Shown here in pieces: positions 1-46,352 of a stretch of 47,456 nucleotides of DNA. The DNA comes from an uncultured Candidatus Saccharibacteria bacterium (GTDB taxonomy: Bacteria; Patescibacteriota; Minisyncoccia; Phycocordibacterales; PALSA-1337): the NCBI GenBank assembly GCA_964412585.1, contig CAYPPJ010000007.1, positions 1-47,456 of the forward strand. Reading direction: 5' to 3'. The notes under the pieces were generated by a model. That model did not search any database, had not been told where the DNA came from, and was given only the letters and a program-made list of their open reading frames with translations. Each line of letters opens with the position of its first letter. Position 1 is the first letter of the stretch. The position numbers and the translations under genes are program-made.

Positions 1-626
<626 letters not shown>

Positions 627-2395: not shown

Positions 2396-2859
2396 AAAAT
2401 GATTCTAGCATTGTTGAGAGGCAATAACTTAAATCACAACAGCAAAAAGTACCAAAAAATCTGGGGATAAATAATTAGGATACAGATTCATCAATGAGGC
2501 AAATCTTTAATTAATATTGAGAATTTTAGAAGAGTAGGATAGGAGTTAAATATGGGTTAGCTCAGGACTTGGAAGCGAAGGAAATGCTAATTTTACCACA
2601 AATTTATCGTAACGATTTTACTTGGTGTAATGAAATCTTGTTATACATAGATTGTAGTGTTTATTAATGTTTATGTAGGTATGCCTAAGGAGATTTTTCG
2701 CGAGTTCTGCGGTGCTGAATGCTGGGTACTGCCGCACTGGAGCCACCTAGTACTTTCGTTGTGATGAACCTAGCTGTCATAGTGATCTTGAATGCGAGCC
2801 AAATATTCCTTGGCCTAAAACTGGTGCTTTAAGCATCCTGGAAGGCTATAATTTTAGGG

Positions 2860-21200: not shown

Positions 21201-24200
21201 CGCTACTCCGGTTGTGCCCCCAGCGACGCCTGTGGTGACACCTCCAGTAACTCCACCTGTTACTCCAAATCCAATCGTTCCAAACCAACCTCCTGTCACG
21301 CCGCCAATTTCTCCTACTGTACAAAATACTATTCCACCAGTTCAGGTGACAACGAATACTCCGAACGTGGTAACTCGTACTCCGACAGTAGTGAGGAATG
21401 GTAATGTAAATACCGTAAAAAAGTCACCATACCGTTCGTTAAGCGATGCTGATATTGATACTGCAACGTCGTCTACCCAAGAGACCACATCTACTCCTGA
21501 GACTTCATTCTTTGGACGGATAAAAGAAATATTCCACTACGTTTACTCTCGCATCCTCAATGGTGTCGATCGTATATTTGGCTACGTAGGAACTACTCAA
21601 ACTGCAGCTGTTGCAGATTTCGATTCAAATCTCGTTGCCTACTATTCCTTTGATGATGGCACAGCTACAGACAATTCAGGCCATGGAAATGGGGGGACCA
21701 TCACCGGAGCCACGCCCGTCGCGGGAAAAGTTGGGGGAGCATTATCATTCTCGACGGGAAGTTCAGTATCAATCGGTAAAAAACTTTTTACTTCATATCC
21801 AGCCACTCTGTGCGCGTGGGTCAAAGTGGAATTGAAAGGGAATGGTCAGTCGTCAAAAATTATTGGTAATAGCGGACTTGATCTAGTTGCGCTCGAAAGT
21901 GATGGTCAGGAAAGATTTGTTGTATACAACGGATTAAAAGATATTTTTACACCGTATTCGAGTAGATATTCAGCCGGAGAGTGGCATCATGTGTGTGGTA
22001 TGGCCGATGCGGGGGCCCAGGTGAATATATACGTCGACGGTGTGCTCGCGGTTGGTCCGTCAACTATTGGTATTGCAAGCACATACTGGAATGCGGTTGT
22101 GGGCAGTAATTTTTCAGGAATTATAGATGAGGTGCGCGTTTATAATTCGACGTTGAGCGCAAGTCAAGTTGCTGATGTCTATAATTTTTCTGGCGGCGGA
22201 AGTTCGAGTGGTACAGGAAGTGGTACTGGCACAGGAACTGGAACAGGTACAGGCACGGGAACAGACGCCGGGACTGGTACCGGAACAGGGGCGGGAAATC
22301 CACCGGCTGCCCCTGTAGTTGCAGGATCATGTTCCGCAACACTCAATACATGTATGGTGGGCACGTTCGCGGATGTGGCTGATACATCAACTGAGCAGAA
22401 GTGGTCCTGCGTCGGTTCGGGCGGAGGCACGACTGCATCATGTTCGATTCCGGTACCCGTTGTGATACCTGATCCCGTTATTCCAACGCCAGATCCGCTC
22501 CCAAATCAGCCGATTTCAAGCGAGCTCATCCCATCTGATCGTCTCTATGATTGGGCAAATAACGTAGGGGTCATGGGAGGTATTCCTGTTGGTCGTTCGG
22601 TCTGTGCGAGCGTCAAAGATGCGCCGTACAATGCGGTGGGCGATGGTGTTGCTGATGACACGTTGGCAATCGTTGCAGCCATTCGCGCTTGCGCGGGCAA
22701 AAGTCAGGCGGTCTATTTTCCTGCGGGGACGTACAAGTTTACCGATAAAATAATTGATCAGGGCACGGGTAGAACATCAGCCAACTTTACCTACAGCAAT
22801 ACTACATTCCGCGGAGCGGGAATGGGTAAAACGATATTGAAGCTCAACACAAACAATCCTATTTATGTAGGTAACGGAGATTGGCCACCACCAGAACCAA
22901 CAGTGTATGTAACAGGTGGAGCGATGCGTGGCAGCTACTCACTCACCGTTGATGATGCAAGCAGTATTGCAGTAGGAAAACTCATCACCATCACACAACT
23001 CAATCCGGATTGGGTTCATTCGAATAGTCGATTCTACGGAGGAGGCCCTGTCGACGATGGACACGAGAAGAATCGTCTCATGGCTATTACCGTGCTCGTA
23101 AAAAGTAAGTCGGGCAGCACGATTACTATCGACCATCCATTGCCGATAGACATGCCAAACTCACCGATGATCACGGTGTGGACCAATATCGTGAAGGGAA
23201 CAGGATTTGAGGATATGACACTCGATATGTCATCAAGTGGTGCGCAGTCAGGCATCTTGTTCAATCAAGTATATGGGTGCTGGGTGAAGGGTGTTGAAAT
23301 AAAAAAAGCAGTCAATCGTTTCTTATGGTTTACCACAGTCTCGAATTGTGAAGTGCGCGATTCATATTTCCATGATGCTACCGTTACCAAAAAAGAAGGT
23401 GTGGATTTTTATCAAAATGACACCTTCAATCTGATTGAAAATAATATTTTGGTGCGCGCGGGTGGTCCGATGATTATTCTCGGTGACTTTGGCGGAGGAG
23501 TTTCTATGAATGTAGTCGCCTACAATTATCTTGAGGATCAGGAAGGCTGGAGCGATGTGGTGCCGTATGCACTTTCTGACAACCACGGTGCGCACAATAT
23601 GTTCAATCTGTTTGAAGGTAACGTTGCACAAAATATTTCTTCAGACGGCTACTATGGCGGCGCGTCGCATGAGACATTGTTCCGCAATAGATTTACCAGT
23701 GTCTATGGCAAAGCTCCCAATCGCAATTATGATTATCTGTGGCAGTACGCTATTCACTTGGGTCACTGGGCCGTTAATTACAATGTAGTAGGTAATGTGC
23801 TGGGCTCACCTGGTTATGCGTCGGTGTATCAACCATCAACGCTCAATTATGCAGGCGAGATCAAGGCAATTTACCGTCTGGGTTTTCCAGATTGTTGTAA
23901 CTCGGGCTTTTCAGGTACCGGTTCAAATCCAACAAATAGTTTGACCTTCGATACAAATGTTGAGGCAACATTGATTCGTCATGGAAATTTTGACTACCTG
24001 AGCAACACCACAAAATGGAGTCCGAACATTTCCGTCCGCTCACTGCCAGCATCATTGTATCTGCGCGGTCAGCCATCATGGTGGAATACGTGGGGGGCAA
24101 CAGCATTCCCACCGATAGGTCCTGATGTATCTGGGTATGCGCAAGAGCTCCCAGCTAAGCTACGTTATCGTGCGATACAGCGGGGAAATGACGTTGCACC

Positions 24201-24894
24201 TCCAGTAAATCAGCCAGCCCATCAACCTTTGATATGCAGTACGTTTACCTACTCCGCATGGGGAACATGCACGGCTGGCACGCAATCGCGCTCAGTTCTG
24301 ACCAGTGGTCCTTTTGCATGTACAGGTGGTCAGCCGGTCACTTCGCAAAGTTGTACGGATGTGCCAGTGGTTCCACCGGTCAATGCACGCTGCTCAACAG
24401 TGGTCGACCGATGTTCCACTGGCATCTATACGGACATGAATGATTCAACGTTACTTACCATATGGTCATGTCGTGGTTCCAACGGCGGGGAAAGTGTCTC
24501 ATGTTCATTGCCAAAGGTAGATCCTACAATTGACGTAGCCCCCGCAAACCTTCCCGCACCTCAGGTGATTCAAAAGCCATTGGTAGTGACTCCGCCATTG
24601 TTGGCGCCTGTTGCTGAGAGGATTATTTCTAACATAAGCCAGACGGAGCAAGGTATATCAACACGTCTGAGTTCGTACGGTCAAAATACTGTCCAGGCGC
24701 TCAGGAATAAATCCCCGTATCGACTTATTACTGATAGTGATTTGGCGACATCGTCAGAATCTGACGATGCCTCAGCGCTCAACGTATCGCAATGGAAAGG
24801 GGCGATGACCTTCTCTGAGCGAGTATCCGAGGTTTTGAGCTATATTGTTCAACGTATTTTAAATGGAGTGGCCAAGGTAAAGGGTTATTTCTAG
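15241..24894 (+). CDS. Giant (3217 aa) surface protein of three tandem modules (LamG + right-handed beta-helix, polysaccharide lyase/hydrolase-like + Cys-rich and Pro-rich linkers + amphipathic tail)
   Basis: N-terminal TM; three LamG units; AVYPGTYNE...DPLFVN...PDIGAYEY; DIQTAVNTVADGGVVLVPAGTC; AVGDGVADDTLAI...VYFPAGTY (Pectate_lyase_3-like); InlB-B/Flg_new-like unit YNLTVSKNGTGAGTV...FTGWSGGGCSG. Confidence 0.88.
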   Translation: MKQHHLKTSYVYALAAIVVIGLVVNIPHIIQTPREVLETVATHSSAVHQTAAVADFNSNLVLQYSFDDGAAADLSGRGNTGIVAGGAVSNVGQIGSALVFDGIDDTINAGSAASLDDIGSQGGMTVSFWINPRSNALGYLFAKGSASNNSGTWSILKSSATSPARISFGKEGAADMNANFNSVLVDNVWQHIVLTWDGNMSSGVNLYRNGVAMSGGVTVAGSGANSDAAHNLMIGSLNGTSGFADVSMDDVRVYNRVLTSAEIGELYSLGGSVVSPPSPINGLCGSSVNACSAGTLSDSTDTATENVWSCIGSIGGTTASCSAPILSQATSYNLTVSKNGTGAGTVTGSGISCGTDCSESVGSGTVITLSATASSGSTFTGWSGGGCSGTSSCSVTISSNTAVTATFNTQSVAPDPGQQPSPAGNRVDLLNSSGGVANTFATIQACASVAQSGQTCAVYPGTYNERVNVSNSGTSASPITFRAASATKPVVRAFSLSNKSYITIDGFELTHRAMTHESTLNAYASAYVSGGTGVRITNNFIHDTDGPCTSFENLSFLTISGNTLDHCGVATTIIGVPTGGTFTITAGVNDTVKIRLNNATSYNVTLTSGTRTLQQVCADINSQASGVYCHAEGADKQVHINPITVGPSTSVILENVAHDAYAALGLGVGNETQISHTAAFQSASGAGSTDVLVENNRVSRVSDFLLPKGSRYVYRNNILGPSDIGTAIHIDGVQSNAPENFLLIENNLSTNNSSSDNHFFLTSAYSANWIVRYNRSFQSKGGQAWGCGPCGTMGSFSHYNNTWYDTVSYYFGWNQLGLTASPNSLSRNNIWYRAVRNPGGNPYYSGAGTVLDKDYDVVFESGNAQEVHAITTDPLFVNMSSGDFALQSSSPAIDHGGPLTTTVTAGTNSTSLQVTNAGPFQDGWAGVGHDWIAVGTSGNYSEIGSINYANNTITLRTPLSWSAGAPVYLFKDSTGRQVLYGPAPDIGAYEYGGGALVLPPANPILPSNPPVLPANPVTCTSFTYSAWGTCTSGSQTRNILTSSPSGCTGGVPVTSQSCTVTPIVPPPPVPAINASCSNTLNQCIAGNYTDLPDTSANHEWSCLGSGTGINVSCSLAKTVAPANVTVPVVPNQPPVTSPNRSDLTPSPQPPTAPQRVVQKVIQTTITPNKSPYRSISDADLDSATSTKQSISDSEQPRSRSSFFERVKEMFRYVYSRILNGVDRLFGNAGRTQTAAVADFNSSLVAHYTFDDGTATDSSGKGNNGSFVGSPTAATGIIGGALQFNGSGDGVNAPIPVSSNGMTVSMWVKTTSTSLQTLFTRGGAGSGYAFDYRFGNRLNFEHNGSTDLAARTKSSSTLTPGTWYHVVFTWDGSTSASHVVFYNNGVSLPHDIESDGVALSDTAGFTPVIGSSFNGVIDDVRIYNRALSAQEVTDLYTAGGGSVPASPPAAPAGQNNTPANTSPNNTPANQPANDTPAQNAAPAQANAATCNTSDIQTAVNTVADGGVVLVPAGTCTWTSPVTITNKSIILKGAGIDQTIITENLAVSDSSLHINSALGRPVRVTGFTFEGRNTRDNYASIGISGPPNQPLFRVDHIKFNNVTERGIIANGVYGLIDHNIFIRNPTEGSPTLVSVMGDSDASWNRPQDMGTSNAVFIEDNIFVHNINANGPFDMYRGARYVFRNNNVYGNNLGHHGFDSDLRGEVNFEVYNNCFVNAAPAERTPYVLHPYSDCSVHPLPATTPYAHGVVFEFRSGSGVIFNNTVTRVPTGNNGGYYDYFTLLRNYRSGDGYITNNGGVFPWDGHSPWNGSCNGTNPLDGNLLDLDTNGDGVADKSSGYPCKDQIGRTSGVGADGKQTLSPVYSWNNNFQGAVGGHIVTGGYATFQCPKVGSTFVSKVDKPAPGAPYTWVCKNNASGVDYTLSDLVNYHIKEGRDYFNGVARPGYSPYVYPHPLTVSGFLSDAGGPVITVPVGNAAPSVAVPVTPPTIAPATPVVPPATPVVTPPVTPPVTPNPIVPNQPPVTPPISPTVQNTIPPVQVTTNTPNVVTRTPTVVRNGNVNTVKKSPYRSLSDADIDTATSSTQETTSTPETSFFGRIKEIFHYVYSRILNGVDRIFGYVGTTQTAAVADFDSNLVAYYSFDDGTATDNSGHGNGGTITGATPVAGKVGGALSFSTGSSVSIGKKLFTSYPATLCAWVKVELKGNGQSSKIIGNSGLDLVALESDGQERFVVYNGLKDIFTPYSSRYSAGEWHHVCGMADAGAQVNIYVDGVLAVGPSTIGIASTYWNAVVGSNFSGIIDEVRVYNSTLSASQVADVYNFSGGGSSSGTGSGTGTGTGTGTGTGTDAGTGTGTGAGNPPAAPVVAGSCSATLNTCMVGTFADVADTSTEQKWSCVGSGGGTTASCSIPVPVVIPDPVIPTPDPLPNQPISSELIPSDRLYDWANNVGVMGGIPVGRSVCASVKDAPYNAVGDGVADDTLAIVAAIRACAGKSQAVYFPAGTYKFTDKIIDQGTGRTSANFTYSNTTFRGAGMGKTILKLNTNNPIYVGNGDWPPPEPTVYVTGGAMRGSYSLTVDDASSIAVGKLITITQLNPDWVHSNSRFYGGGPVDDGHEKNRLMAITVLVKSKSGSTITIDHPLPIDMPNSPMITVWTNIVKGTGFEDMTLDMSSSGAQSGILFNQVYGCWVKGVEIKKAVNRFLWFTTVSNCEVRDSYFHDATVTKKEGVDFYQNDTFNLIENNILVRAGGPMIILGDFGGGVSMNVVAYNYLEDQEGWSDVVPYALSDNHGAHNMFNLFEGNVAQNISSDGYYGGASHETLFRNRFTSVYGKAPNRNYDYLWQYAIHLGHWAVNYNVVGNVLGSPGYASVYQPSTLNYAGEIKAIYRLGFPDCCNSGFSGTGSNPTNSLTFDTNVEATLIRHGNFDYLSNTTKWSPNISVRSLPASLYLRGQPSWWNTWGATAFPPIGPDVSGYAQELPAKLRYRAIQRGNDVAPPVNQPAHQPLICSTFTYSAWGTCTAGTQSRSVLTSGPFACTGGQPVTSQSCTDVPVVPPVNARCSTVVDRCSTGIYTDMNDSTLLTIWSCRGSNGGESVSCSLPKVDPTIDVAPANLPAPQVIQKPLVVTPPLLAPVAERIISNISQTEQGISTRLSSYGQNTVQALRNKSPYRLITDSDLATSSESDDASALNVSQWKGAMTFSERVSEVLSYIVQRILNGVAKVKGYF

Positions 24895-34898: not shown

Positions 34899-35160
34899 AG
34901 GATGTAATGAGAGCGCACTGTACCATGAAATGATTAAAATGGCGAGGTATTTGAACTATTCGGGATTTCCGAATAGTTGAAGTCAGTATGTGCAAAATAT
35001 GCACGTACTGGTGTAGATAAAAGCAATATGCAAAAAGTTAGATAATTCTGTCCACAGAATACACACAGCTTTATCACTCGTTTAGATTTTTGTCGACGTG
35101 TATTCATAGTATATTTGCAACAACGCCTGCACTCGTATTATTCCTGCCTAATATATTTAT

Positions 35161-35688
35161 ATGAAAAAAATCAATACAAAGCAGCAACAAAATGTATCAA
35201 AAAATAGTGTTGTACTTTACACAAATACAGATGGTAATGTCGAACTGCGTGCCGATGTGAAGAAGGATACGTTGTGGGCGACCCAAGAACAGATTGCTCA
35301 AATATTTGGTACCACAAAACAAGTTATTAGTTGGCACACAGTAAATATTTTCAAAGAAGGTGAGTTGAATAAAATTTCAGTTGTCAAAGAATCTTTGACA
35401 ACTGCCGCTGACGGTAAAAGATACAAAACAAACTTCTACAACCTCGACTCCATCATCGCCGTCGGCTACCGCGTCAATTCCAAGAAAGCTACACAGTTTC
35501 GCATCTGGGCCACCACCATCCTCCGCACCTATCTCGTCTCTGGTCATGCACTCAATACGCACGTACTTACCACATCGCCAGATAAATTCATCGGCCTCGA
35601 CGAAGCTGTGGCACTGCTCAAATCATCGAAGCATCCGGGGAAATTGAAGGGGAATCTCATACTCAAAATCAAGAAGGAGGTGGTGTAG
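35161..35688 (+). CDS. RhuM-family protein (short form, N-terminal domain)
   Basis: LWATQEQIAQIFGTT...ISWH..NIFKEGEL, FYNLDSIIAVGYRVNSKKATQFRIWAT. Confidence 0.88.
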   Translation: MKKINTKQQQNVSKNSVVLYTNTDGNVELRADVKKDTLWATQEQIAQIFGTTKQVISWHTVNIFKEGELNKISVVKESLTTAADGKRYKTNFYNLDSIIAVGYRVNSKKATQFRIWATTILRTYLVSGHALNTHVLTTSPDKFIGLDEAVALLKSSKHPGKLKGNLILKIKKEVV

Positions 35689-35698
35689 AGGAGTAGTG

Positions 35699-35747
35699 TA
35701 AACAAAAAGCCCGCCTTGCGAACAGAGGTCTTCTGTTGCAAAGCGGG
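35699..35747 (-). terminator. Intrinsic terminator downstream of the Clp-N gene
   Basis: Long hairpin cccgc-cttgc-gaacaga / tctgtt-gcaa-agcggg followed by a T run on the minus strand. Confidence 0.65.
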
Positions 35748-35781
35748 AGCACGTGATGTCTGACGTACGCGAACCGACGCT

Positions 35782-36228
35782 TTAGCGCAACCCTTCTTTG
35801 GGGAATTTGGCCAGCGTCTCTTTGTAATTGATCTTGAGCTTTTTCAGCACCTGAGCCGCCAGGCCGTCTCCTTCGTAGAGGATGCCGAGAAACAGATGCC
35901 ATGGCTCGATATGGTCGAGGCCAAACTCGTGTTTGGCAATCCGTCCTGCGAGCCCGATAACTTTTTGGGAACGCGGGGTCAGCCTCATTTGTCCGTAGCT
36001 TTTACGAGGCACCACTTCCCCCACTTCTTTGATGATAGTCTTCCAGATCTTGACGTTGTCGAGGCCTACAAGCTTGTTGAGGACAATCACCGTATCATGG
36101 TCTTGGCAGAGCGACAGCATCAGATGTTCGGTACAAATGACGTCGCTGTGCATCTCGCTGGCAAGAAGGCCTGCGAATGAGATGACCGTTGAGGTCGCGT
36201 GTGAACGTACGACATTTGGAATGTTCAT
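35782..36228 (-). CDS. Stand-alone Clp N-terminal (double Clp-R repeat) domain protein, copy 1 (start ATG 36228)
   Basis: ICTEHLMLSL and LTPRSQKVIGLA...IEPWHLFLGILYEGDGLAAQVLKK; no AAA+ module; TTGACA-16-TAAGGT promoter upstream. Confidence 0.85.
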   Translation of the reverse strand: MNIPNVVRSHATSTVISFAGLLASEMHSDVICTEHLMLSLCQDHDTVIVLNKLVGLDNVKIWKTIIKEVGEVVPRKSYGQMRLTPRSQKVIGLAGRIAKHEFGLDHIEPWHLFLGILYEGDGLAAQVLKKLKINYKETLAKFPKEGLR

Positions 36229-36254
36229 TATTTGTCTTTCGTTGGGCTGGTGAC

Positions 36255-36282
36255 ACCTTACCTCAAGGAAGAGGAATGTCAA
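36255..36282 (-). promoter_or_regulatory. sigma70-type promoter for Clp-N copy 1
   Basis: Minus strand TTGACA (36282-36277), 16-nt spacer, TAAGGT (36260-36255). Confidence 0.55.
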
Positions 36283-36345
36283 GAATGGCGGTATAAACAA
36301 AAAGCCCGTCTCCCAAAATAGACCCAAAAATGCTACCATCACCCC

Positions 36346-36633
36346 ATGAATCCTCCCGAATCCAACCCGCCCACCCTCGAGAGCCTCTCAGCCGAGATTG
36401 CCGCTCTCAAAGCCCGTAATACCCGCGTCGAAGCCGCCAAAGGCTGGGAAACCAGCGCCACCCGCAGGATCCTCATTGCCGCGTTCACCTATATCGTCAT
36501 CGTCCTCTTCTTCCTCGCCGCCGGCCTGCCCAAGCCATTCGTCAATCCAATCGTGCCCACCGTCGGGTTCCTCTTGTCCACGCTGTCGCTCGAGTACGTG
36601 AGGAGGAGGTGGGGTTTAAATAAAAACAAGTAA
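36346..36633 (+). CDS. Small conserved hypothetical membrane protein (coiled coil + 2 TM)
   Basis: RN.RVE..K.WETS.TRR...FTY...PF.N.IVPT.GFLLSTLSL pattern; TGc-TACCAT 6 nt before ATG. Confidence 0.75.
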   Translation: MNPPESNPPTLESLSAEIAALKARNTRVEAAKGWETSATRRILIAAFTYIVIVLFFLAAGLPKPFVNPIVPTVGFLLSTLSLEYVRRRWGLNKNK

Positions 36634-36649
36634 TCGGTATTTAATTTTT

Positions 36650-36868
36650 ATGATTAAAGATAATTGGTTCAAGTTAGTGATTGTTGTTCTGGCGATTGTG
36701 GGTATTATTCTCGGTTTTAATTATGGTGAAGCAAGAGATACTTCAGAGAAACAGTTGCAAATTTTAAAAATTTGTATGGGCACAGTCAATCCAGATTCGC
36801 TAAAGGATTACGAATCGCTGAAAATCAATCTTGGGCTATGTGATAAGTTGAGCAGAGAATTTAGGTAA
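36650..36868 (+). CDS. Small hypothetical protein with N-terminal signal anchor
   Basis: IKDNWFKL + hydrophobic stretch; AT-rich leader before ATG. Confidence 0.55.
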   Translation: MIKDNWFKLVIVVLAIVGIILGFNYGEARDTSEKQLQILKICMGTVNPDSLKDYESLKINLGLCDKLSREFR

Positions 36869-36890
36869 ATTTATTATTCACATCTTTTCC

Positions 36891-36916
36891 ACCTCGAGAC
36901 CTTCTCGAGGTCTTTT
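36891..36916 (+). terminator. Probable intrinsic terminator
   Basis: acctcgaga-cct-tctcgaggt followed by ctttt. Confidence 0.5.
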
Positions 36917-37036
36917 GGTTTGCTATAATCCTGATACAAGAAATTCCCCTCCGCACAACTCAATAATTATGTCCCAAATTGCAACTATTTTTTAGGGAAA
37001 TGGCTAGATTAGCAATGCCTCGTAATTTAATATACT

Positions 37037-37906
37037 ATGTACATTACACCTCCATTATCGCCGGTTATGATTAACAAGAAGATATTATCTCGTGTTGAAA
37101 CAAAGCCTTATTTTCAGAAAGGTGACTTTGTTTTGTATCACGGAGACTCACTGAGTATCCTCGCTCAGTTACCTGAAAATTCAATAGATATGATTTTCGC
37201 AGATCCACCGTACAATCTCTCGAATGGTGGCTTTAGTGTTCATGCAGGAAAGATGGTCAGTGTCGACAAGGGTGACTGGGATAAGAGTAAAGGATTCAAA
37301 GATGACTACGATTTCCATCATCGTTGGTTAGAAGCATGCAAACGCGTCTTGAAACCGAATGGAACACTGTGGGTGAGCGGGACATATCATTCGATTTATC
37401 AGTGTGGTCATGCGTTGCAATCATTGGGATACCATATCCTCAATGATATCTCATGGTTCAAACCAAACGCATCTCCAAACTTGAGTTGCAGATTTTTTAC
37501 TGCAAGTCACGAGACTATTATTTGGGCTCGCAAAGACAAGAAGGGTAAGCACACCTTCAATTATCAGGACATGAAGACCAAAGAGTGGCCTGATGATTTT
37601 TTCAAGAATGGGGGAAAACAGATGAGAAGTGTGTGGCATATTCCTGAAACAGAAAGTGTTTGGACAGTTGGTACACCAAAGAAAGAAGAGAAGATTTACG
37701 GAAAGCACCCAACCCAGAAACCTCTGGAACTATTAAAGAGGATTGTGCTGGCGAGTACTAATAAAGGAGAAATTATTCTCGATCCATTCGCTGGGAGTTC
37801 AACAACCGGAATTGCTTCGATTATGCATGGCCGAAAGTTTTTGGGTATTGATATGGACAAAGGGTTTCTAGATTTATCAAAGAAGAGGGCGTTAGATATA
37901 ATATAG
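37037..37906 (+). CDS. Beta-class N6-adenine DNA methyltransferase, DpnA-like (start may be ATG 37067)
   Basis: IFADPPYNLSNGG, VDKGDWD, GKQMRSVW, KHPTQKPLELLKRI, ILDPFAGSSTTG. Confidence 0.92.
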   Translation: MYITPPLSPVMINKKILSRVETKPYFQKGDFVLYHGDSLSILAQLPENSIDMIFADPPYNLSNGGFSVHAGKMVSVDKGDWDKSKGFKDDYDFHHRWLEACKRVLKPNGTLWVSGTYHSIYQCGHALQSLGYHILNDISWFKPNASPNLSCRFFTASHETIIWARKDKKGKHTFNYQDMKTKEWPDDFFKNGGKQMRSVWHIPETESVWTVGTPKKEEKIYGKHPTQKPLELLKRIVLASTNKGEIILDPFAGSSTTGIASIMHGRKFLGIDMDKGFLDLSKKRALDII

Positions 37907-37911
37907 CTATC

Positions 37912-38529
37912 ATGAAAAATGAAAGTCTGAATTTGCTGAATAATAAGGAAGTAATTCGTTGGTGTTACGAAGCTATTACGGAAGTTTCCTTGATGAATAC
38001 GGAAAGCAGTAAAAATCTTGAGGAATCAAAAAAGATTGAACAAGATTGGGGAAATAAAGTAATCAAAACAATCGGTGGCAAGCAGTGGACGACGGTTCTC
38101 TGTCAGGAGCTTGTAATGGAAGCACTAATTAAACTTGGCAGGAAACATGTTAGAAAAACTAAACCTATGCAGAGTTCACTTAGGGATAAGAGTTATGATC
38201 CTGATCTTGAGTGTGATGATTATGTCTATGAGGTAAAAGGTAGGAGCTGGACTACTCCAGGAACTGCAGGTGAAAAAATACTTGGAGTTCCGTTGAAGTA
38301 TGGTGAATTACCTCGTCTATATAAAAAACCGCTCCAGATTATATTAGTCGGATATCAGGAATATGAGGCACGTGAGAAGTTTGCGTTTGGAGATTTGCTG
38401 GATTCGAAAAATCAAACAAAGGAACTTCATGAAAGCCTGGCTTTTTATAAGGAGCAGGAGATTGAATACGTTGCTTTTACGGATATCTTAAAAAAGATTG
38501 GATTTAAGTATGGTTGTTGGAAAAAATAA
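37912..38529 (+). CDS. Putative PD-(D/E)xK restriction endonuclease
   Basis: PDLECDDYVYEVK motif; 5 nt downstream of the MTase; family not recognised. Confidence 0.6.
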   Translation: MKNESLNLLNNKEVIRWCYEAITEVSLMNTESSKNLEESKKIEQDWGNKVIKTIGGKQWTTVLCQELVMEALIKLGRKHVRKTKPMQSSLRDKSYDPDLECDDYVYEVKGRSWTTPGTAGEKILGVPLKYGELPRLYKKPLQIILVGYQEYEAREKFAFGDLLDSKNQTKELHESLAFYKEQEIEYVAFTDILKKIGFKYGCWKK

Positions 38530-38636
38530 GAGGATCTTGATAAATCAACAAATTGCCTCCCGGCATTTGTATAAATATTTTGTCAGGAAGGACATCTGGG
38601 CTATTGCTTTTTTAACTTTCATGATATAATTACGTG

Positions 38637-39070
38637 GTCCAGAAGTTAAAAACGGATGGATGACGGACTGATACATAATTTTATTAGCATAAAGAGAGCG
38701 TTGCAAAACCCTATCGGATAGCTGATGAGATTATCTCGTCAGTTTGTCCAATGGGTTTTTGTTCTTTTGGTTAGATAGATCCTTTCAGCTACTGGTTAGA
38801 TGGTTGATGGGGTTTATTTAACAGTAACTGGCATGACCCTGAAAAAGCCAGCAGGTGATGGTCTGACCATTCCATCAATAAATGGCGAATAAATTCGCTC
38901 GTTGCTTTCCAACCGTGGACGGCTATATGTTATGTCAACATTGGAATGGCAACTGGATAAAGTTTCTTGCAGGAAACTGGGGAAATAGAAAACGCCCCCT
39001 AAAGAGCGTTTTCAAGAAAAAGTCCGCTTAGATTTTTTCACACAATAGACCCTTTGGGGTCTTTTGTGTT
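38637..39070 (+). ncRNA. Candidate structured non-coding RNA (unassigned)
   Basis: TGa-TATAAT at 38622-38630, no ORF >=60 aa in 38530-39192, at least 6 hairpins, terminator-like stem at 39040-39068. Confidence 0.35.
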
Positions 39071-39222
39071 CATTGGTAATTATAACCCATGAGTTCACTA
39101 TCCTATATTTTTTCTGTGTATAACGCAAGTCAGCTTCCATCCAAGGGAGTTTTTACTGGGTTGTCATTTGTTAATAAAGTTGTATAGTTAAATTGCAATT
39201 AAGTAATTTTAATATAAATAAT

Positions 39223-39456
39223 ATGAAGAAATATATATTTTTGCTTGCTCTAGTTTTCTGCGCATTTTCTCTTGTCTCCTCAGTCGAGGCAAAAACCATA
39301 AAAGTTAAGTCTTATTACAAACCATCTACCGGCACTTACATTAATTCTTATTACAAAACATCTTCAAATAAGACAAAGTTGGATAATTATTCAACTAAAG
39401 GCAATTACAATCCTTACACAGGAAAAAAGGGCTACGTGAATCCCTATAAATGGTAG
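39223..39456 (+). CDS. Small basic secreted protein with K.DNYSTKGNYNPYTGKKG motif
   Basis: Signal peptide MKKYIFLLALVF...VEA, then VKSYYK.S.GTY.NSYYKT..N.TK.DNYSTKGN.NPYTG. Confidence 0.75.
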   Translation: MKKYIFLLALVFCAFSLVSSVEAKTIKVKSYYKPSTGTYINSYYKTSSNKTKLDNYSTKGNYNPYTGKKGYVNPYKW

Positions 39457-39458
39457 AG

Positions 39459-40103
39459 ATGAAGAAATTTATTATTGAAAATTGGTTTAAATTGACCATT
39501 GTTGGAATCGTTATTTTGATTGGTTTATTTTTACTTTTTTACTTTATTATTTTTATTCCTCAAAAGGAACAGCAAATGCTCGTTAGACAGGCCGAAGAGA
39601 GGGCTAAACTTGAGGAATTACAAAAGGAAAAAGAATTGAGTGATCCTAAATCGGATAAATATATTGTTACTTATGACAAAGAAGGTAATCCATTGGATTG
39701 GACTGTTTTGACAAGGGCGTCCGTTATTCTTAATGACACTTTAACTACTTATCAAGAAGTACTACCTGTAATACAAAAAACTCAAACGACTGAGCGGGAA
39801 ATTCTTTCAAAGCTTTATAGTGTCTTGAAGAGTCCATATCTTGAGGATAAAGCTAGTTGGCAGAATTTAATAAATCACGATGAAGCTTATATAGCTTCAG
39901 GTGAAAAAGTCATCACACTACTTTCTAATCTGATTAAAAATTATCAAGGTTTACATACTGCTGTTAGTATGAGAGATCCACAGCTGTATCTTTATTACGA
40001 AGAAGAAATTTCAAAACTTGAAGCACAAAAGTCATTAATTATGAAGGATTATTCGGATAAAGAAGCTAAGAAAAAGTATTACGCTAGTTTTTTGTCGTCA
40101 TAA
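39459..40103 (+). CDS. Hypothetical membrane-anchored helical protein
   Basis: IIENWFKL + TM, then coiled-coil-like region; AT-rich. Confidence 0.65.
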   Translation: MKKFIIENWFKLTIVGIVILIGLFLLFYFIIFIPQKEQQMLVRQAEERAKLEELQKEKELSDPKSDKYIVTYDKEGNPLDWTVLTRASVILNDTLTTYQEVLPVIQKTQTTEREILSKLYSVLKSPYLEDKASWQNLINHDEAYIASGEKVITLLSNLIKNYQGLHTAVSMRDPQLYLYYEEEISKLEAQKSLIMKDYSDKEAKKKYYASFLSS

Positions 40104-40158
40104 TAACTAAATTCAGTTAGTTTTTGGGGCATAATTCAGTCATGTTATAATCCCTCCC

Positions 40159-41394
40159 ATGCCCCCAACGCCCGCCTCCCACAATTCCAACCCCACCCCC
40201 TCGAACCCTCAACCCCGCAAAATATTCGGCCTGAACCGCAACATTTTCATACTGGGCCTCACGAGTTTCTTCAACGACTTCTCCAATGAAATGATCCTCT
40301 CGGCATTCCCGGCCTTCTTTACCTCGGTACTCAAGGCGGGGGCGGCATCGCTGGGGCTGGTGGAGGGTATTGCTGATGGGGCATCCAACATTCTCAAGAT
40401 CTATTCCGGTCAGCTCTCGGACAAACTCAAGAAGCGTCGCATATTCATCTTCCTCGGCTATGGCATGTCCGTCATCATCAGACCCTTCTACATGGTCATG
40501 GGCTCGGTGGCCGGAGTCTTGGGACTCAGGGTGGTTGATCGTATCGGCAAAGGGGTCAGGGAAGCGCCACGCGATGTGATCATCTCGGTCTCATCACAAG
40601 CAGGGGAAATGGGTCGCTCATTTGGCTACCACCGCGCCATGGATACGGCGGGCGGTATCTTGGGACCTCTGGCCGCATACCTCATCTTGGCGCGCTGGCC
40701 GGGCGGGTTCAATATTATTTTCATAAGTGCGTTTGTGATCGGCCTCATTGCGGTGGCCACCATCTTCTTTGTCAAAGACGTGGTCATCGCTCGTGACGGT
40801 CAGGGCGTGCGCATCTTTTCCCTGCAAACCTTCCGCTCATTCTCGCCACGCTTCAAATGGTATCTCGTAGCCATCTTCATTTTCTCCATAGGCTCACTGC
40901 CATCGGCACTCCTCTTGTTGCAGACCACCAACATCGGCTTGATGATCGCCTCCATCCCGCTCTACTACATGGTCTACAGTATTTCATTCACTCTTTTTTC
41001 ATATGCGGCAGGCAAGCTCTCGGACAAGATCGGCACCTCGCGTGTCTTGGCATTCGGCTATGCGATCTTGGCGCTTTCATACATCGCACTGATGACCTCG
41101 ACGACGCCGCTGACGTTGGGATTTGCATTTGCAGTCATGGGACTCTTTTCGGCCTGCACTGACTCGACACAGCGCGCTTTTGTGGCAAAGACCACACCCG
41201 AATATGAACGCGGCACGGCTTACGGTATGTACAATGCGGTGGTGGGATTTGGGATTATGATTTCGGGCATTCTTGGCGGCATTATCTGGCAGTCGTGGGG
41301 ACCAACGACGGCACTCCTGATTGCGGAGGCGGTGGTTGTGGTGGGGCTTATTGTGTTTTATGCCAGCACGAAAGTGGGAAGGGGGAATATTTGA
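40159..41394 (+). CDS. MFS transporter
   Basis: About 12 TMs; GQLSDKLKKRR, RVVDRIGKGVREAPRD, GKLSDKIGTSR, ERGTAYGMYN. Confidence 0.93.
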   Translation: MPPTPASHNSNPTPSNPQPRKIFGLNRNIFILGLTSFFNDFSNEMILSAFPAFFTSVLKAGAASLGLVEGIADGASNILKIYSGQLSDKLKKRRIFIFLGYGMSVIIRPFYMVMGSVAGVLGLRVVDRIGKGVREAPRDVIISVSSQAGEMGRSFGYHRAMDTAGGILGPLAAYLILARWPGGFNIIFISAFVIGLIAVATIFFVKDVVIARDGQGVRIFSLQTFRSFSPRFKWYLVAIFIFSIGSLPSALLLLQTTNIGLMIASIPLYYMVYSISFTLFSYAAGKLSDKIGTSRVLAFGYAILALSYIALMTSTTPLTLGFAFAVMGLFSACTDSTQRAFVAKTTPEYERGTAYGMYNAVVGFGIMISGILGGIIWQSWGPTTALLIAEAVVVVGLIVFYASTKVGRGNI

Positions 41395-41406
41395 TATAAT
41401 AAACCC

Positions 41407-42648
41407 ATGAAAAAATCTATATTTTTTGTTTTGTTGTTTTCAGTATCAGCAGTAACGTTCTGCGTACATCCCTCAGTTTCTCAGGCCTCATGGTGGAATC
41501 CTTTCACATGGTTTTCCAAGTCGTCGAGTGTTCAGATTAATACTGTAGTTTCTTCTGGTGTAGAGTCACCGTCGAAGAAAATTGCCCAGATTAGTATCTC
41601 CACACCTACTTATGATGATGTCCTTGAACCAGGGGCAACTGTACCACTTGAGTTTACATCTGTTTCAGGGGCGCAAACATATAACGTTAGTATTGTGTTG
41701 ACGGGCAAGTCCGCATCACCACACGTTTTAGATTTGACCCTTACAAACACAAAAGGAACAATCACTATTCCGCAGACACAAAATTCATATCTGGTAGGTG
41801 GCTCATTGGATGGTAGTGAGCTCGTGGTACAAGCACTTGATAAAGATGGAAGAATAGTTGGGTATGGCAGAAATCAAATTCGTATTCTGCCACAAGCATC
41901 TAATCCGAACCTACTTAAAGCAAGTTCTTATATAGTAAGTGGCAATGGTGGAGCTGTTACGTTAACTTTTGGGTCACTAACAAAACCATTGGTGCGTCGC
42001 GAAGTAGATATCTCGTGTGTAAATACATATACACTCGCATCGATTGATGGGCTTGCCTGCGGTAAGATTCTGTCTCTAGGTTCTGGTGCATACACAAAAA
42101 AATTGTCTACCAAAAGGAATATTTTTACAGATCGCGATATTACTATTGTGGTCGGTGTAAAATATTTTGATGCACAAGGACAAGAAGTGAATCCTTCTGG
42201 TATCGATGACGAATCCTTTGTCACTATCAAAATAACAAAACCGACACCTGGTGCGCCCGTTGTAGAGGATGCAAAACCTGGCATATCAGCTATTTCACAG
42301 GAAATCTTGGATCAAAAGAAAACTGAACAGAATTGCCCGGCAGACGGTGCGGCATTCGTCAAGAAATTTATTGCAGACAAAGGCCAATTTCCGGGTGTTT
42401 CCAACTATGCTTTTGATAAGATTGTTGGTACTCCGGAATATCATTACAACAGATCATCACAGGCTTGTTTCGTAAAATTGACCCATACTATCTCGGCTTC
42501 CAGCGCAACAGTATTTGTCAGTGAAATCAGGGATGTGCATAGTACAAAACTGATAACATCTTCAGTGTGGTCGTCTGAAAAAGAACTTGGCAAACATCCG
42601 ACAAAAGAAGAATTTGACGCCGAAGCTCAGCAGCTTATGAGAGATTGA
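41407..42648 (+). CDS. Secreted hypothetical protein (beta-sandwich-like)
   Basis: Signal peptide ending SQA followed by SWWNPFTWF; beta-rich body. Confidence 0.7.
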   Translation: MKKSIFFVLLFSVSAVTFCVHPSVSQASWWNPFTWFSKSSSVQINTVVSSGVESPSKKIAQISISTPTYDDVLEPGATVPLEFTSVSGAQTYNVSIVLTGKSASPHVLDLTLTNTKGTITIPQTQNSYLVGGSLDGSELVVQALDKDGRIVGYGRNQIRILPQASNPNLLKASSYIVSGNGGAVTLTFGSLTKPLVRREVDISCVNTYTLASIDGLACGKILSLGSGAYTKKLSTKRNIFTDRDITIVVGVKYFDAQGQEVNPSGIDDESFVTIKITKPTPGAPVVEDAKPGISAISQEILDQKKTEQNCPADGAAFVKKFIADKGQFPGVSNYAFDKIVGTPEYHYNRSSQACFVKLTHTISASSATVFVSEIRDVHSTKLITSSVWSSEKELGKHPTKEEFDAEAQQLMRD

Positions 42649-42672
42649 TGTAAGTTTTGGTACAATACCTTC

Positions 42673-43395
42673 ATGAAAAACTATTCAATCTACAACGCCT
42701 CGTCCGAGAATATGTCAGCAGTTGCGGATAATTCCGTTGATAGTATCGTTTTTGCTCCGCCATATAATATCAACACTCCTTATAGCGACCGAGAGAAGTA
42801 TGACCACAAATCATTCGAAGAATATCGAGACATGCTTAGTCGCATTATCCGGGAGTGTTTTCGTGTTCTCAAACCGACGGGACTTTTCATCAATGAATCT
42901 GCGGACACAATTTATTCTGATGGTAAGCTGATAGCGCTCTCGGGATTGATTCAGAAATTGTGTCTTGATGCGGGATTCAAGATCAAAGAACGACATATTA
43001 ATTTTCTACAATCTGAAGCAGGTGTTGAGCTTGTCGATAGGGAACATAACTGGTCAAAAGTAGACTATTATTCAGAAGACAACGCCCACTCCAACTGTCA
43101 TCAGTGGATTGTTATGGCAAAAGATCCGTCTACAACCTTCGAAGGTGACAAGGGTAAGATTTTTTATATCAATTATCCGTCAGACGAAGAAGGTCATCCG
43201 TGTCCATTCTCACCGGAACATGTACGGATCTTCCTTGATTTGTTGAAGTTTGCTAAAGGGATGACTGTTCTCGAGTCTTTTATGGGAACGGCGCGACTCG
43301 GTGTGGAGGTTGTCAGCAGGGGTGGGAACTACGTGGGTTATGAGTTGGAGAAAAAACATTTCGAAACGGCTCAAAATAAATTTGCCGCCATCTAG
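42673..43395 (+). CDS. Beta-class N4-C/N6-A DNA methyltransferase homolog with degenerate motifs (APPY; ESFMGTA)
   Basis: VDSIVFAPPY, ECFRVLKPTG, GHPCPF, VLESFMGTARLG, GYELEK. Confidence 0.75.
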   Translation: MKNYSIYNASSENMSAVADNSVDSIVFAPPYNINTPYSDREKYDHKSFEEYRDMLSRIIRECFRVLKPTGLFINESADTIYSDGKLIALSGLIQKLCLDAGFKIKERHINFLQSEAGVELVDREHNWSKVDYYSEDNAHSNCHQWIVMAKDPSTTFEGDKGKIFYINYPSDEEGHPCPFSPEHVRIFLDLLKFAKGMTVLESFMGTARLGVEVVSRGGNYVGYELEKKHFETAQNKFAAI

Positions 43396-45025: not shown

Positions 45026-45038
45026 CTATAATGTAGGG

Positions 45039-46352
45039 ATGAAATTGCATGCCAATTCAGCTGATTTTCCACGCGCCATCATGCATGTCGACGGTGATTC
45101 ATTTTTTGTTTCTTGCGAGATTGCACGACGTCCAGGGTTGCGGGGAAAACCAGTCGTCACCGGTCTCGAACGTGGCATCGCTTCAGCCATGAGCCCCGAA
45201 GCAAAGAAAGCTGGCGTTCATCGCGGCATGCGTATCGGTGATATGCGACGTGTGTGTCCTGGCGTTATCATCCTTCCGTCCGACTACACCATGTATGCGC
45301 AATATGCTCGCCGAATGTATTCCATCGTCCGTCGATACACCGATGTTGTTGAGGAATACAGTATCGATGAATGTTTTGCTGATCTGACCGATTCACCATG
45401 TACTCGTTGTGCTCAGCCGTTGTCATATGAAGAAATCGCGCGCCGGATACAGCGAGATCTCTATGAGTTGCTCGGTGTTACATTTTCACTCGGACTTTCG
45501 GTCAACAAGGTCATGGCCAAAGTCGCTTCAAAATGGAACAAGCCAAACGGATTCACTGTGATTGGGCGCAGTTCGATCCCTGAATATTTGAAAGTGTTAC
45601 CTGTTGGGAAAATCTGGGGCATCGGTTCAAGTACGACTACGTATTTGAAAAAATTGGGTATTGAAACGGCGCTTGATTTGGCGACCAAAGATCATTCATG
45701 GATTGATGATCACTGCGACCTGCCAGTGGCGCGCATTTACGAAGAGTTACGGGGCAATAAAGTGTTGGAACTTTCGACCGATTCGCATGCTGACTATGCG
45801 TCCGTTCAGCGTACTCAAACATTTCGACCACCTTCAAAGGACAGGGAATTTTGTTGGTCTCAATTGTCACAACATGTCGAGGATGCCTGTATCTATCTCC
45901 GAAAAGATGCGCGCATAGCTACAAAAGTTTCATTTTTTCTGAAGACACAAGATTTTGAATATTTAGGTGAAGAAATCCCACTTCCCGAAGCAACTGCAGA
46001 GCCTCAAGAAATTCTCCGCGCTCTTCGTTCGCGCTTCGATGCATTATTTGTACCAACAATTAAGTATCGTACTACCGGTGTCACGCTCTTCGGCCTGCGT
46101 TCGCGTGAAATGCGGACCGTTTCATTGTTCGGCGATTCGGCACAATTGGAAAAAGTAAGTGGAGTTACACGCGCCGTTGATATGTTGGCACAAAAGTTTG
46201 GCCGAGGAGTCGTATTTCTCGGCTCGAGTCTGCGCGCATTGCATCATGATGTGAAAGAACATTCTCGGCTTCATGCTGGTCACGGACGCATACATTTATC
46301 ATCAGAAAAACGGAAGCATTTTGACCTGATTTTTCTCGGGGAGGTGAGGTGA
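45039..46352 (+). CDS. dinB: Y-family DNA polymerase IV-like
   Basis: HVDGDSFFVSCE, SPEAK..GV, YSIDECFADLT, GLSVNKVMAKVASKWNKPNG, IWGIG. Confidence 0.92.
   Translation: MKLHANSADFPRAIMHVDGDSFFVSCEIARRPGLRGKPVVTGLERGIASAMSPEAKKAGVHRGMRIGDMRRVCPGVIILPSDYTMYAQYARRMYSIVRRYTDVVEEYSIDECFADLTDSPCTRCAQPLSYEEIARRIQRDLYELLGVTFSLGLSVNKVMAKVASKWNKPNGFTVIGRSSIPEYLKVLPVGKIWGIGSSTTTYLKKLGIETALDLATKDHSWIDDHCDLPVARIYEELRGNKVLELSTDSHADYASVQRTQTFRPPSKDREFCWSQLSQHVEDACIYLRKDARIATKVSFFLKTQDFEYLGEEIPLPEATAEPQEILRALRSRFDALFVPTIKYRTTGVTLFGLRSREMRTVSLFGDSAQLEKVSGVTRAVDMLAQKFGRGVVFLGSSLRALHHDVKEHSRLHAGHGRIHLSSEKRKHFDLIFLGEVR

What the first reader, a model, noticed from the sequence alone, without database searches (positions are those of the whole stretch)
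38622..39070. Strong promoter firing into ~430 nt of ORF-free, hairpin-dense sequence: candidate novel ncRNA
Seen: TGa-TATAAT (38622-38630) with no ATG at +1, unlike the other such promoters in this window. Stems at 38705-38759 (~25 bp with G-U pairs), 38828-38851, 38858-38870, 38885-38898, 38901-38953 (with inner stems), 38961-38978 and 38989-39012; terminator-like stem 39040-39068; tggttagat direct repeats at 38768 and 38793. G-U-compensated stems favour RNA-level structure. It sits right after the R-M pair. I could not match it to tmRNA, RNase P, SRP, 6S or tRNA.
Basis: partly seen in the sequence, partly recalled or inferred. Interest (0 to 1): 0.7.

Follow-up and report, generated by a model that had tools for sequence, protein, structure and literature searches.

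The report
Abundant small-protein mRNA with structured leader
The supposed new non-coding RNA is a real, very abundant and highly folded transcript, but it is the messenger for an unannotated, conserved 49-amino-acid protein preceded by a 245-base structured leader, so it is a missed small gene rather than a new RNA class.

Summary
Three true wastewater metatranscriptomes assemble a discrete RNA covering about 38646-39027. It is at least as deep as this organism's own residual 23S signal, while neighbouring genes are absent or much lower.

No Rfam family, tRNA or tmRNA matches. The region is the most structured 400-nt stretch of the window on the + strand.

It is not ORF-free. The 49-codon ORF at 38882-39031 has seven small homologs (34-59 aa) among 1.84 billion protein representatives. 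All share the motif KFAxCFP..DG.M.C.HWNGxW.

Six homologous loci show protein-type evolution. Third codon positions differ twice as often as first or second positions. Eight of ten invariant residues use several synonymous codons.

Every homolog appears to be a stand-alone unit of promoter-like site, long ORF-free leader and small ORF, usually followed by a terminator. The leaders are strongly folded but unrelated in sequence.

The locus is therefore a highly expressed small-protein gene that the gene callers missed, in a CPR/Patescibacteria-like bacterium, with a 245-nt structured 5' UTR. The protein's function is unknown. The first 140 nt of the leader are unusually invariant between strains, which leaves room for an RNA-level role. 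Covariation was not significant.

The parts
38622..38630 (+). Extended -10 promoter TGATATAAT. The transcription start is inferred at about 38637.
   Evidence: 4 TGNTATAAT sites, all + strand and intergenic; the same motif lies 6-7 nt before the ATG of leaderless genes at 40159 and 41407. RNA contigs start at 38646 and 38649.
38637..38881 (+). 245-nt 5' UTR (leader), highly structured. Its first ~140 nt are invariant in two related strains.
   Evidence: Leader z = -5.5 and 5' domain z = -4.2. X27 shows 0/129 differences in 38650-38778 and X32 shows 1/151 in 38612-38762, against 7.5-9.5% in flanking genes.
38692..38768 (+). Long imperfect hairpin (inner arms 38705-38731 / 38733-38759) whose 3' side runs into a U-rich tract. 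It is a possible attenuator or stabiliser.
   Evidence: (I1). The regulatory function is inferred only.
38770..38822 (+). Second long hairpin of the leader. It contains both TGGTTAGAT copies.
   Evidence: (D7). In the related strain 38790 U.G changes to C-G and 38779/38813 becomes a mismatch.
38828..38851 (+). Hairpin with a 5-bp stem and a 14-nt loop.
   Evidence: 38832/38847 changes from C-G to U-A in the related strain.
38856..38877 (+). Hairpin just upstream of the start codon (6-bp stem, alternative to the MFE hairpin 38857-38871).
   Evidence: 38860/38873 changes from G-C to A-U in the related strain, and the variant's MFE adopts this hairpin.
38882..39031 (+). Small ORF of 49 aa: MANKFARCFPTVDGYMLCQHWNGNWIKFLAGNWGNRKRPLKSVFKKKSA. 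It is a member of an unnamed small-protein family.
   Evidence: 7 small homologs, E 2.7e-8 to 1.2e-4; invariant C18, H20, N22, G23, W25; codon-position differences 0.24/0.21/0.50, and 8 of 10 invariant residues use several synonymous codons; three-stranded beta-sheet model.
39040..39069 (+). Intrinsic terminator of the unit (core stem 39047-39062 plus a T-run).
   Evidence: I4. Equivalent terminators follow the small ORF in L095, L097, L098 and L099.

Best explanation
Region 38622-39075 is a monocistronic, very highly expressed gene for a conserved 49-aa protein.

An extended -10 promoter (TGATATAAT) starts transcription at about 38637. The first 245 nt form a 5' UTR folded into a 5' hairpin, two long hairpins and several short ones. 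The ORF at 38882-39031 is then translated from an A-rich start context with no Shine-Dalgarno sequence, as in its homologs. Transcription stops at the hairpin and T-run at 39040-39069.

Shown:
- The transcript exists and is abundant.
- The ORF is under protein-level purifying selection across homologs.
- The architecture of promoter-like site, long ORF-free leader and small ORF recurs in the six homologous loci, and a terminator was found after the ORF in four of them plus the window.

Inferred:
- The exact RNA ends and the transcribed strand.
- That the dense leader structure gives the mRNA its stability (hence its abundance) and/or gates translation or elongation. The long hairpin followed by a U-tract could act as an attenuator.
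- That the protein is a small beta-sheet domain with conserved Cys/Cys/His and a charged tail, binding a metal or a macromolecular partner.

The protein's biochemical function is unknown.
For: Transcription:
- Contigs of three true metatranscriptomes lie exactly on 38646-39022, 38649-38991 and 38705-39027, at depths 14.7, 5.3 and 10.3. Flanking genes show 0 in two runs and 2.9-5.9 in the third.
- The organism-specific 23S pieces in run X14 have depth 5-8.

Coding:
- Exhaustive phmmer of the 49-aa ORF found 7 small proteins with a shared N-terminal motif and aligned start codons.
- In 20 aligned codons of 7 genes, pairwise differences are 0.236, 0.214 and 0.495 at codon positions 1, 2 and 3. 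Eight of ten invariant residues use more than one synonymous codon.
- Putative RNA pairings between conserved codons (UUUCC / GGAA) are broken without compensation in 3 of 7 sequences (read from the alignment).

Architecture:
- All six homologous loci have 290-570 nt of ORF-free DNA upstream and no shared neighbouring genes.
- Terminators follow the ORF in the window and in 4 of 6 homologs.
- Leaders are strongly folded in 5 of 7 (z -3.6 to -6.8).

Not a known RNA.

Not tied to its neighbours: 69 loci with REase homologs and the loci with homologs of the downstream 217-aa gene lack any similar sequence.
Against: - There is no direct evidence of translation (no ribosome profiling or peptide data).
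- The family is tiny (8 sequences), and the window's own protein is absent from a 15-billion-protein collection.
- The start codon has no Shine-Dalgarno sequence and sits at the foot of a hairpin.
- RNA contigs stop 15-45 nt before the terminator, so the 3' end is uncertain.
- Contigs carry no strand information, so the + strand is inferred from the promoter, the terminator and the 30 kcal/mol folding advantage.
- The extreme invariance of 38612-38778 between strains is not explained by the coding function.
- The structure model is only moderate (mean pLDDT 67) and has no significant fold match.
Confidence: 0.8

Rival explanations
1. Dual-function RNA. Besides encoding the 49-aa protein, the structured 5' part, especially the invariant first ~140 nt, acts as a riboregulator or protein-binding RNA in its own right. 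It might even be released as a ~130-nt species by termination at the long hairpin plus U-tract. This would resemble RNAIII, SgrS or SR1.
For: The 5' 130-150 nt are invariant in two strains whose flanks differ by 7.5-9.5%. The leader has an exceptional folding z-score. The hairpin 38692-38768 is followed by a U-rich run. The RNA is very abundant.
Against: No homolog of the leader was found anywhere, and leaders of homologous genes share no sequence. Covariation is not significant. Assembled RNA contigs run continuously from leader into ORF, with no sign of a separate short species. The invariance could reflect recent recombination.
Confidence: 0.12
2. Pure non-coding structural RNA of a new class. 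On this view the 49-codon ORF is fortuitous, and the protein-like hits are ORFs called over homologous RNAs.
For: No Rfam match. Very strong + strand structure, including inside the ORF: z is -1.4 to -4.8 in ORFs of all homologs. This strain's gene callers never called the ORF.
Against: Third-position substitution excess and synonymous-codon turnover at invariant residues. Start codons align, and the C-terminal tails vary as in real small proteins. Nucleotide similarity between homologs is confined to the coding N-terminus. Candidate RNA pairings within the ORF are broken without compensation.
Confidence: 0.04
3. An RNA or leader functionally tied to its neighbours. It would be a regulator or accessory of the upstream restriction-modification pair, or a long attenuating leader of the downstream 77-aa / 217-aa / MFS genes.
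For: It lies directly between these genes in a low-GC, defence-island-like stretch.
Against: None of 69 loci encoding 59-88% identical REase homologs has a similar sequence, and most have the next gene within 30 nt. Homologs of the 217-aa gene lack it too. The small-ORF homologs have entirely different neighbours. The unit has its own terminator, and the 77-aa gene has its own promoter-like site at 39161-39188.
Confidence: 0.03

Closest known systems
Unannotated bacterial small ORF-encoded proteins (under 50 aa) on stand-alone transcripts previously listed as sRNAs
   Same: Monocistronic promoter-leader-sORF-terminator unit, missed by gene callers. It looks like an sRNA gene, is highly expressed, and is conserved only within a narrow lineage.
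   Different: The 5' UTR is unusually long (245 nt) and strongly folded. The family has no name, no Pfam/NCBIfam/PHROG model and no solved relative.
Dual-function RNAs such as Staphylococcus RNAIII (hld), SgrS (sgrT) and Bacillus SR1 (from my own knowledge)
   Same: An abundant, multi-hairpin RNA of several hundred nt that also carries a small ORF.
   Different: No evidence here for a trans-acting role and no target complementarity was tested. There is no sequence or structural homology, so this is a resemblance in layout only.
Large structured bacterial RNAs (RNase P RNA, tmRNA, 6S, OLE, ROOL, GOLLD, HEARO)
   Same: Size (~400 nt), abundance, dense helices, and a possible 5'-3' closing helix at 38664-38669 / 39021-39026.
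   Different: No covariance-model match even at E <= 10. Related CPR contigs carry canonical tmRNA (L021) and RNase P RNA (L099). The 3' part is protein-coding.

Membership tests
Unnamed small-protein family (P0127, P0128, P0130-P0134) | N-terminal Met followed within 2-4 residues by KFA, then C-(F/R)-P | tested here: met
   The alignment A2 shows MANKFARCFP in the window against MSKFARCFP, MAKFAKCFP, MSNKFAICFP, MASAKFAKCFP and MTSKKFAYCRP.
Unnamed small-protein family (P0127, P0128, P0130-P0134) | Core C-x-H-(W/F/H)-N-G-x-W about 10 residues after the first Cys | tested here: met
   C18, H20, N22, G23 and W25 are invariant in all 8 sequences. phmmer E-values run from 2.7e-8 to 1.2e-4 against 1.84 billion representatives.
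Unnamed small-protein family (P0127, P0128, P0130-P0134) | Evolves as a protein (third-position excess, synonymous turnover) | tested here: met
   Differences are 0.236, 0.214 and 0.495 at codon positions 1, 2 and 3. Eight of ten invariant residues use more than one codon.
Unnamed small-protein family (P0127, P0128, P0130-P0134) | Stand-alone unit with a long ORF-free upstream region and its own terminator | tested here: met
   Upstream gaps are 290-570 nt in L094-L099. Terminators were found in the window and in 4 of 6 loci.
Known structured RNA families (Rfam 15: RNase P, tmRNA, 6S, SRP, riboswitches, ribozymes, OLE/ROOL/GOLLD/HEARO and others) | A covariance-model score at or near the family's gathering threshold | tested here: not met
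   There are no gathering-level hits in the region. At E <= 10 only three spurious hits of 15-22 bits appear. ARAGORN finds none.
Novel structured ncRNA (generic criteria) | Significant base-pair covariation among homologs | tested here: inconclusive
   Only one partial divergent strain is available, with 12 differences in 257 nt. It shows two compensatory pairs, but p is about 0.13 in simulation, and the variant's MFE is no better than that of random mutants.
Novel structured ncRNA (generic criteria) | Absence of a conserved protein-coding frame | tested here: not met
   The ORF at 38882-39031 is conserved and evolves as coding sequence.
Riboswitch or attenuator leader | An aptamer or leader element conserved in sequence and structure upstream of homologous genes | tested here: not met
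   Leaders of the six homologs show no similarity to the window's leader (blastn; covariance model R1). Only L097 and L099 share an element with each other.
Type I toxin-antitoxin small ORF | A hydrophobic membrane peptide with an overlapping antisense RNA | tested here: not met
   The peptide is polar and basic and is predicted to be all-beta. An antisense RNA could not be tested because the contigs are unstranded.

The most novel reading that the evidence does not exclude
The 245-nt leader, and above all its strain-invariant first ~140 nt with the long hairpin and U-tract, is a functional RNA element of a new kind in CPR bacteria. It would be either a ligand- or protein-responsive attenuator controlling the small protein, or the riboregulator half of a dual-function RNA. 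The family-wide habit of placing this small ORF behind long, strongly folded but sequence-unrelated leaders would then reflect that function.
Probability: 0.18. Interest if true: 0.6.

Novelty: new member of a known kind. Interest (0 to 1): 0.35.

Why it matters
This is a clear example of a small protein gene that looks like an sRNA and escapes gene callers. This strain's 49-aa sequence is absent from a collection of 15 billion predicted proteins, yet its RNA is among the most abundant transcripts of the organism in wastewater metatranscriptomes.

CPR/Patescibacteria are largely uncultured and much of their proteome is unknown. A tiny, highly expressed, lineage-restricted protein with conserved Cys/Cys/His and Trp residues is a reasonable target for structural and interaction studies.

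The finding also shows that strong RNA-folding signals and the absence of an Rfam hit do not by themselves indicate a new ncRNA class.

Tried and rejected
- **Rfam and ARAGORN.** Rfam at gathering and at E <= 10, plus ARAGORN, gave nothing.
- **Motifs seen by eye.** An AAAGUCCG / GCUUA resemblance to RNase P P4 and a CUGAUGA hammerhead-like core were rejected. There is no model match, no GAAA element, and relatives carry canonical RNase P and tmRNA.
- **Phage and plasmid blastn (distant mode).** No match.
- **Viral contig scans.** Two exact 20-mer scans of viral contigs and a protein-motif scan gave nothing.
- **Six-frame pseudo-protein query.** A query against the 5.8-billion-protein index gave nothing, because short matches cannot reach significance there.
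- **Synteny route through the downstream 217-aa gene.** One weak genome hit plus homologs at 43-64% identity, none with the element.
- **Synteny route through the REase.** 69 metagenome loci, none with the element.
- **Covariance model of the 5' domain.** No hit in 464 kb of held CPR DNA.
- **Repeat-based ideas.** A DGR, retron or MITE origin was rejected. There are no second copies in the window and the locus assembles as single-copy. The 9-nt inverted repeat flanking the unit is explained by two promoter-like TCATGnnTATAAT sites.
- **Other ORFs.** The 30-aa ORF called by JGI (38800-38892) loses its ATG in the related strain. No conserved upstream leader peptide exists.
- **Mislabelled runs.** Runs X2-X5 are labelled metatranscriptomic but behave as DNA (flat ~40x depth, contigs up to 93 kb). 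They were not used as expression evidence.
- **Protein fold.** Foldseek against the PDB gave only generic beta-meander matches at E >= 0.36.

Full report
**1. The observation**

The listed sequence features are real.
- TGATATAAT lies at 38622-38630. It is one of only four TGNTATAAT matches in the window, all on the + strand and all between genes. Two of them sit 6-7 nt before the ATG of leaderless genes (40159, 41407), whereas this one has no ATG at the expected start.
- All listed stems, the terminator (39040-39069, core 39047-39062 plus a T-run) and the two TGGTTAGAT copies are present.
- The folding is far beyond chance and favours the + strand. The MFE is -153.8 kcal/mol (z -7.66) against -123.3 kcal/mol (z -6.22) for the complement.
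- Among 231 sliding 400-nt windows, the three best GC-corrected + strand values all overlap this region (z -4.5).
- The upstream genes are a type II methyltransferase and restriction enzyme.
- Rfam (whole window at gathering score; the region at E <= 10) and ARAGORN give nothing relevant.
- The one wrong element is 'ORF-free'. A 49-codon ATG ORF lies at 38882-39031.

**2. Is it transcribed?**

Public runs holding this sequence come from wastewater, activated sludge, river and groundwater samples.
- Four runs labelled as metatranscriptomes behave like DNA, with flat ~40x depth and contigs up to 93 kb. I ignored them.
- Three other metatranscriptomes each assemble a contig lying wholly inside the region: 38646-39022 (depth 14.7), 38649-38991 (5.3) and 38705-39027 (10.3).
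- In two of these runs nothing else is covered within 35000-42000. In the third run only scattered pieces appear, at depths of 2.9-5.9.
- In the first run the pieces of 23S rRNA specific to this organism have depth 5-8. The RNA is therefore as abundant as the residual rRNA.
- The contig starts fit a transcription start at about 38637, 7 nt after the -10 box.
- The contig ends fall 15-45 nt short of the terminator. This may reflect coverage decay, difficulty reading the GC hairpin, or 3' trimming.
- Contigs carry no strand. The + strand is inferred from the promoter, the terminator and the folding asymmetry.

**3. Looking for relatives of the RNA**

- All contigs carrying the neighbouring proteins are the same strain.
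- The organism is CPR/Patescibacteria-like. The REase has 75-85% identical homologs labelled Kaiserbacteria, Moranbacteria, Parcubacteria and Minisyncoccia. The 23S also carries a group I intron.
- Neither the 69 metagenome loci with REase homologs nor the loci with homologs of the downstream 217-aa gene contain anything similar.
- Phage, plasmid and viral collections also contain nothing similar.
- A covariance model of the 5' domain finds nothing in 464 kb of held DNA.
- Two related strains were found in read data. X27 has 12 differences in 38650-38906, all at or after 38779: 0 of 129 before that point and 11 of 95 between 38779 and 38873. Its MTase and MFS pieces differ by 9.5% and 7.5%.
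- X32 has 1 difference in 151 nt over 38612-38762, but 9% divergence just downstream of the unit.
- The substitutions include two compensatory pairs (38832/38847 C-G to U-A; 38860/38873 G-C to A-U). One is a U.G to C-G change, four lie in loops, and one predicted pair is hit on both sides and becomes a mismatch.
- Simulation shows that two or more such compensatory pairs arise by chance with p of about 0.13. The variant's folding energy is no better than that of random mutants. Covariation is therefore not established.

**4. The turning point**

To test the small-protein rival, I searched the 49-aa translation exhaustively against 1.84 billion protein representatives.
- Seven small proteins of 34-59 aa matched, with E from 2.7e-8 to 1.2e-4. 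Two large repeat proteins (Sushi, FN3) were spurious matches.
- The small proteins align from their start codons and share KFAxCFPxxDGxMxCxHWNGxWIxFP. C18, H20, N22, G23 and W25 are invariant, and the charged tails vary.
- I fetched the DNA of six of them (L094-L099). Over 20 aligned codons in 7 genes, pairwise differences are 0.236, 0.214 and 0.495 at codon positions 1, 2 and 3.
- Eight of the ten invariant residues are encoded by more than one synonymous codon; the other two, Lys and Trp, use a single codon here. This is the signature of selection on a protein, not on an RNA.
- Nucleotide similarity between loci is confined to this coding N-terminus.
- Apparent RNA pairings between conserved codons (UUUCC of Cys-Phe-Pro with GGAA of Trp-Asn-Gly) are broken without compensation in three of seven sequences.
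- The gene was never called in this strain. JGI instead called a 30-aa ORF in another frame, whose ATG is lost in the related strain. The exact 49-aa sequence is absent from a 15-billion-protein collection.

**5. Architecture of the family**

- Each homolog sits alone among unrelated neighbours: LexA-like/DinB, a tRNA, ribonucleotide reductase and RNase P RNA, or an antitoxin.
- Each has 290-570 nt of ORF-free DNA upstream. I read extended -10-like promoters 135-310 nt before the ATG by eye in four of them (the tool confirms one).
- The start contexts are A-rich and lack a Shine-Dalgarno sequence.
- The scan finds a terminator soon after the stop codon in four of six homologs, as in the window.
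- The leaders are strongly folded in five of seven (z -3.6 to -6.8), and the ORFs are also folded (z -1.4 to -4.8).
- The leaders share no sequence with one another. The exception is a ~130-nt element common to L097 and L099 that Rfam does not know.
- No conserved leader peptide exists.

**6. The protein**

- There is no Pfam, NCBIfam, PHROG or PDB sequence match.
- AlphaFold2 with the 8-sequence alignment gives a three-stranded antiparallel sheet (residues 5-10, 15-20, 25-29) with pLDDT of about 84 in the core. The tail is disordered, and the mean pLDDT is 67.
- Foldseek finds only generic beta-meander matches at E >= 0.36.
- The conserved Cys8, Cys18 and His20 lie on adjacent strands, and the tail is basic. 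A metal site or disulfide, and binding to a macromolecular partner, are therefore reasonable guesses, but they are inference only.

**7. Conclusion and mechanism**

Most likely (about 0.8), the region is a monocistronic, very highly expressed small-protein gene made of four parts:
1. a promoter at 38622-38630;
2. a 245-nt structured 5' UTR at 38637-38881;
3. a 49-aa ORF at 38882-39031;
4. a terminator at 39040-39069.

The dense structure probably stabilises the mRNA and may gate expression. The 38692-38768 hairpin followed by a U-tract looks like an attenuator, and the start codon sits at the foot of a hairpin. These regulatory steps are inferred, not shown.

The unexplained residue is the near-perfect invariance of the promoter and first ~140 nt of leader between strains that differ by 7.5-12% around it. 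This keeps alive a dual-function or cis-regulatory RNA reading (about 0.12-0.18). A purely non-coding RNA is now unlikely (about 0.04). A functional link to the R-M pair or the downstream genes is also unlikely (about 0.03).

**8. Novelty and interest**

This is a new, unannotated member of an undescribed small-protein family. It lies in an ordinary kind of transcription unit with an unusually long, folded leader.

It is of moderate interest, for three reasons:
- It is a caveat for ncRNA discovery.
- It is an abundant small protein of CPR bacteria.
- It is a possible entry point to leader-RNA regulation in that group.

It is not a new RNA class.

Noticed in passing
window 56-392 (within the 23S rRNA 3' part, 1-629): The 23S gene carries a 337-nt ORF-less insertion. 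It matches the group I intron model at 43.5 bits (E 1.2e-9, below the gathering score). One metatranscriptome contig joins 55 to 393, so the insertion is removed from the RNA.
   Followed up: partly
window 2847-2860, 40146-40159, 41395-41407, 45027-45039: TATAAT boxes lie 6-7 nt before the ATG of four genes (the giant 3353-aa ORF, the MFS gene, the 413-aa ORF and the DinB homolog). This indicates widespread leaderless mRNAs. A TCATGnTATAAT flavour recurs.
   Followed up: partly
window 39079-39084 (- strand), with 39085-39092: A second perfect TATAAT with an upstream TCATGGGT faces into the unit from the right. Together with the real promoter it forms a 9-nt perfect inverted repeat (38625-38633 / 39076-39084). 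It precedes only an 11-codon ORF. It may be an antisense promoter or chance.
   Followed up: partly
window 35161-35688, 37037-38529, 41407-43395: The neighbourhood resembles a defence island. It holds a RhuM / PDC-S05-like protein, a CcrM/HinfI-like MTase with an REase, and a second MTase (42673-43395) after an unknown 413-aa ORF. GC drops to 0.32-0.40 across 37000-40000.
   Followed up: partly
L023-L091 (REase homolog loci): The 205-aa REase is unusually conserved across many CPR lineages (most loci 65-85% identical at the amino-acid level). In most loci it is followed within 30 nt by a ~250-aa ORF (an MTase in L093), which is the reverse of the gene order in the window.
   Followed up: partly
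L097 45-185 and L099 1535-1685: Two homolog loci share a ~130-nt structured element upstream of the small ORF. It has a long closing helix, a GGTAATTT..CTACCTA motif and a GCGGGTTTT terminator. Rfam has no match for it, so it is a candidate leader or sRNA in its own right.
   Followed up: partly
L099 2196-2541; L021 11439-11837: Canonical RNase P RNA (120 bits) lies just downstream of one small-ORF homolog. Canonical tmRNA (108 bits) lies beside smpB in a relative. These CPR lineages therefore have standard housekeeping RNAs.
   Followed up: yes
L010 1771 onward (junction at window 38865): One JGI contig switches at 38865 to unrelated GC-rich sequence encoding a 117-aa ORF. This is most likely a chimeric assembly.
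   Followed up: partly
runs X2-X5 laid on window 36500-41000: Runs labelled METATRANSCRIPTOMIC show flat ~40x depth and contigs up to 93 kb, so they behave as DNA. Contig breaks at 36504 and 40205 with small bubble contigs suggest strain polymorphism at the edges of the low-GC segment.
   Followed up: partly
window 2860-12921 and 15241-24894: There are two giant ORFs, of 3353 and 3217 aa. They were not analysed.
   Followed up: no
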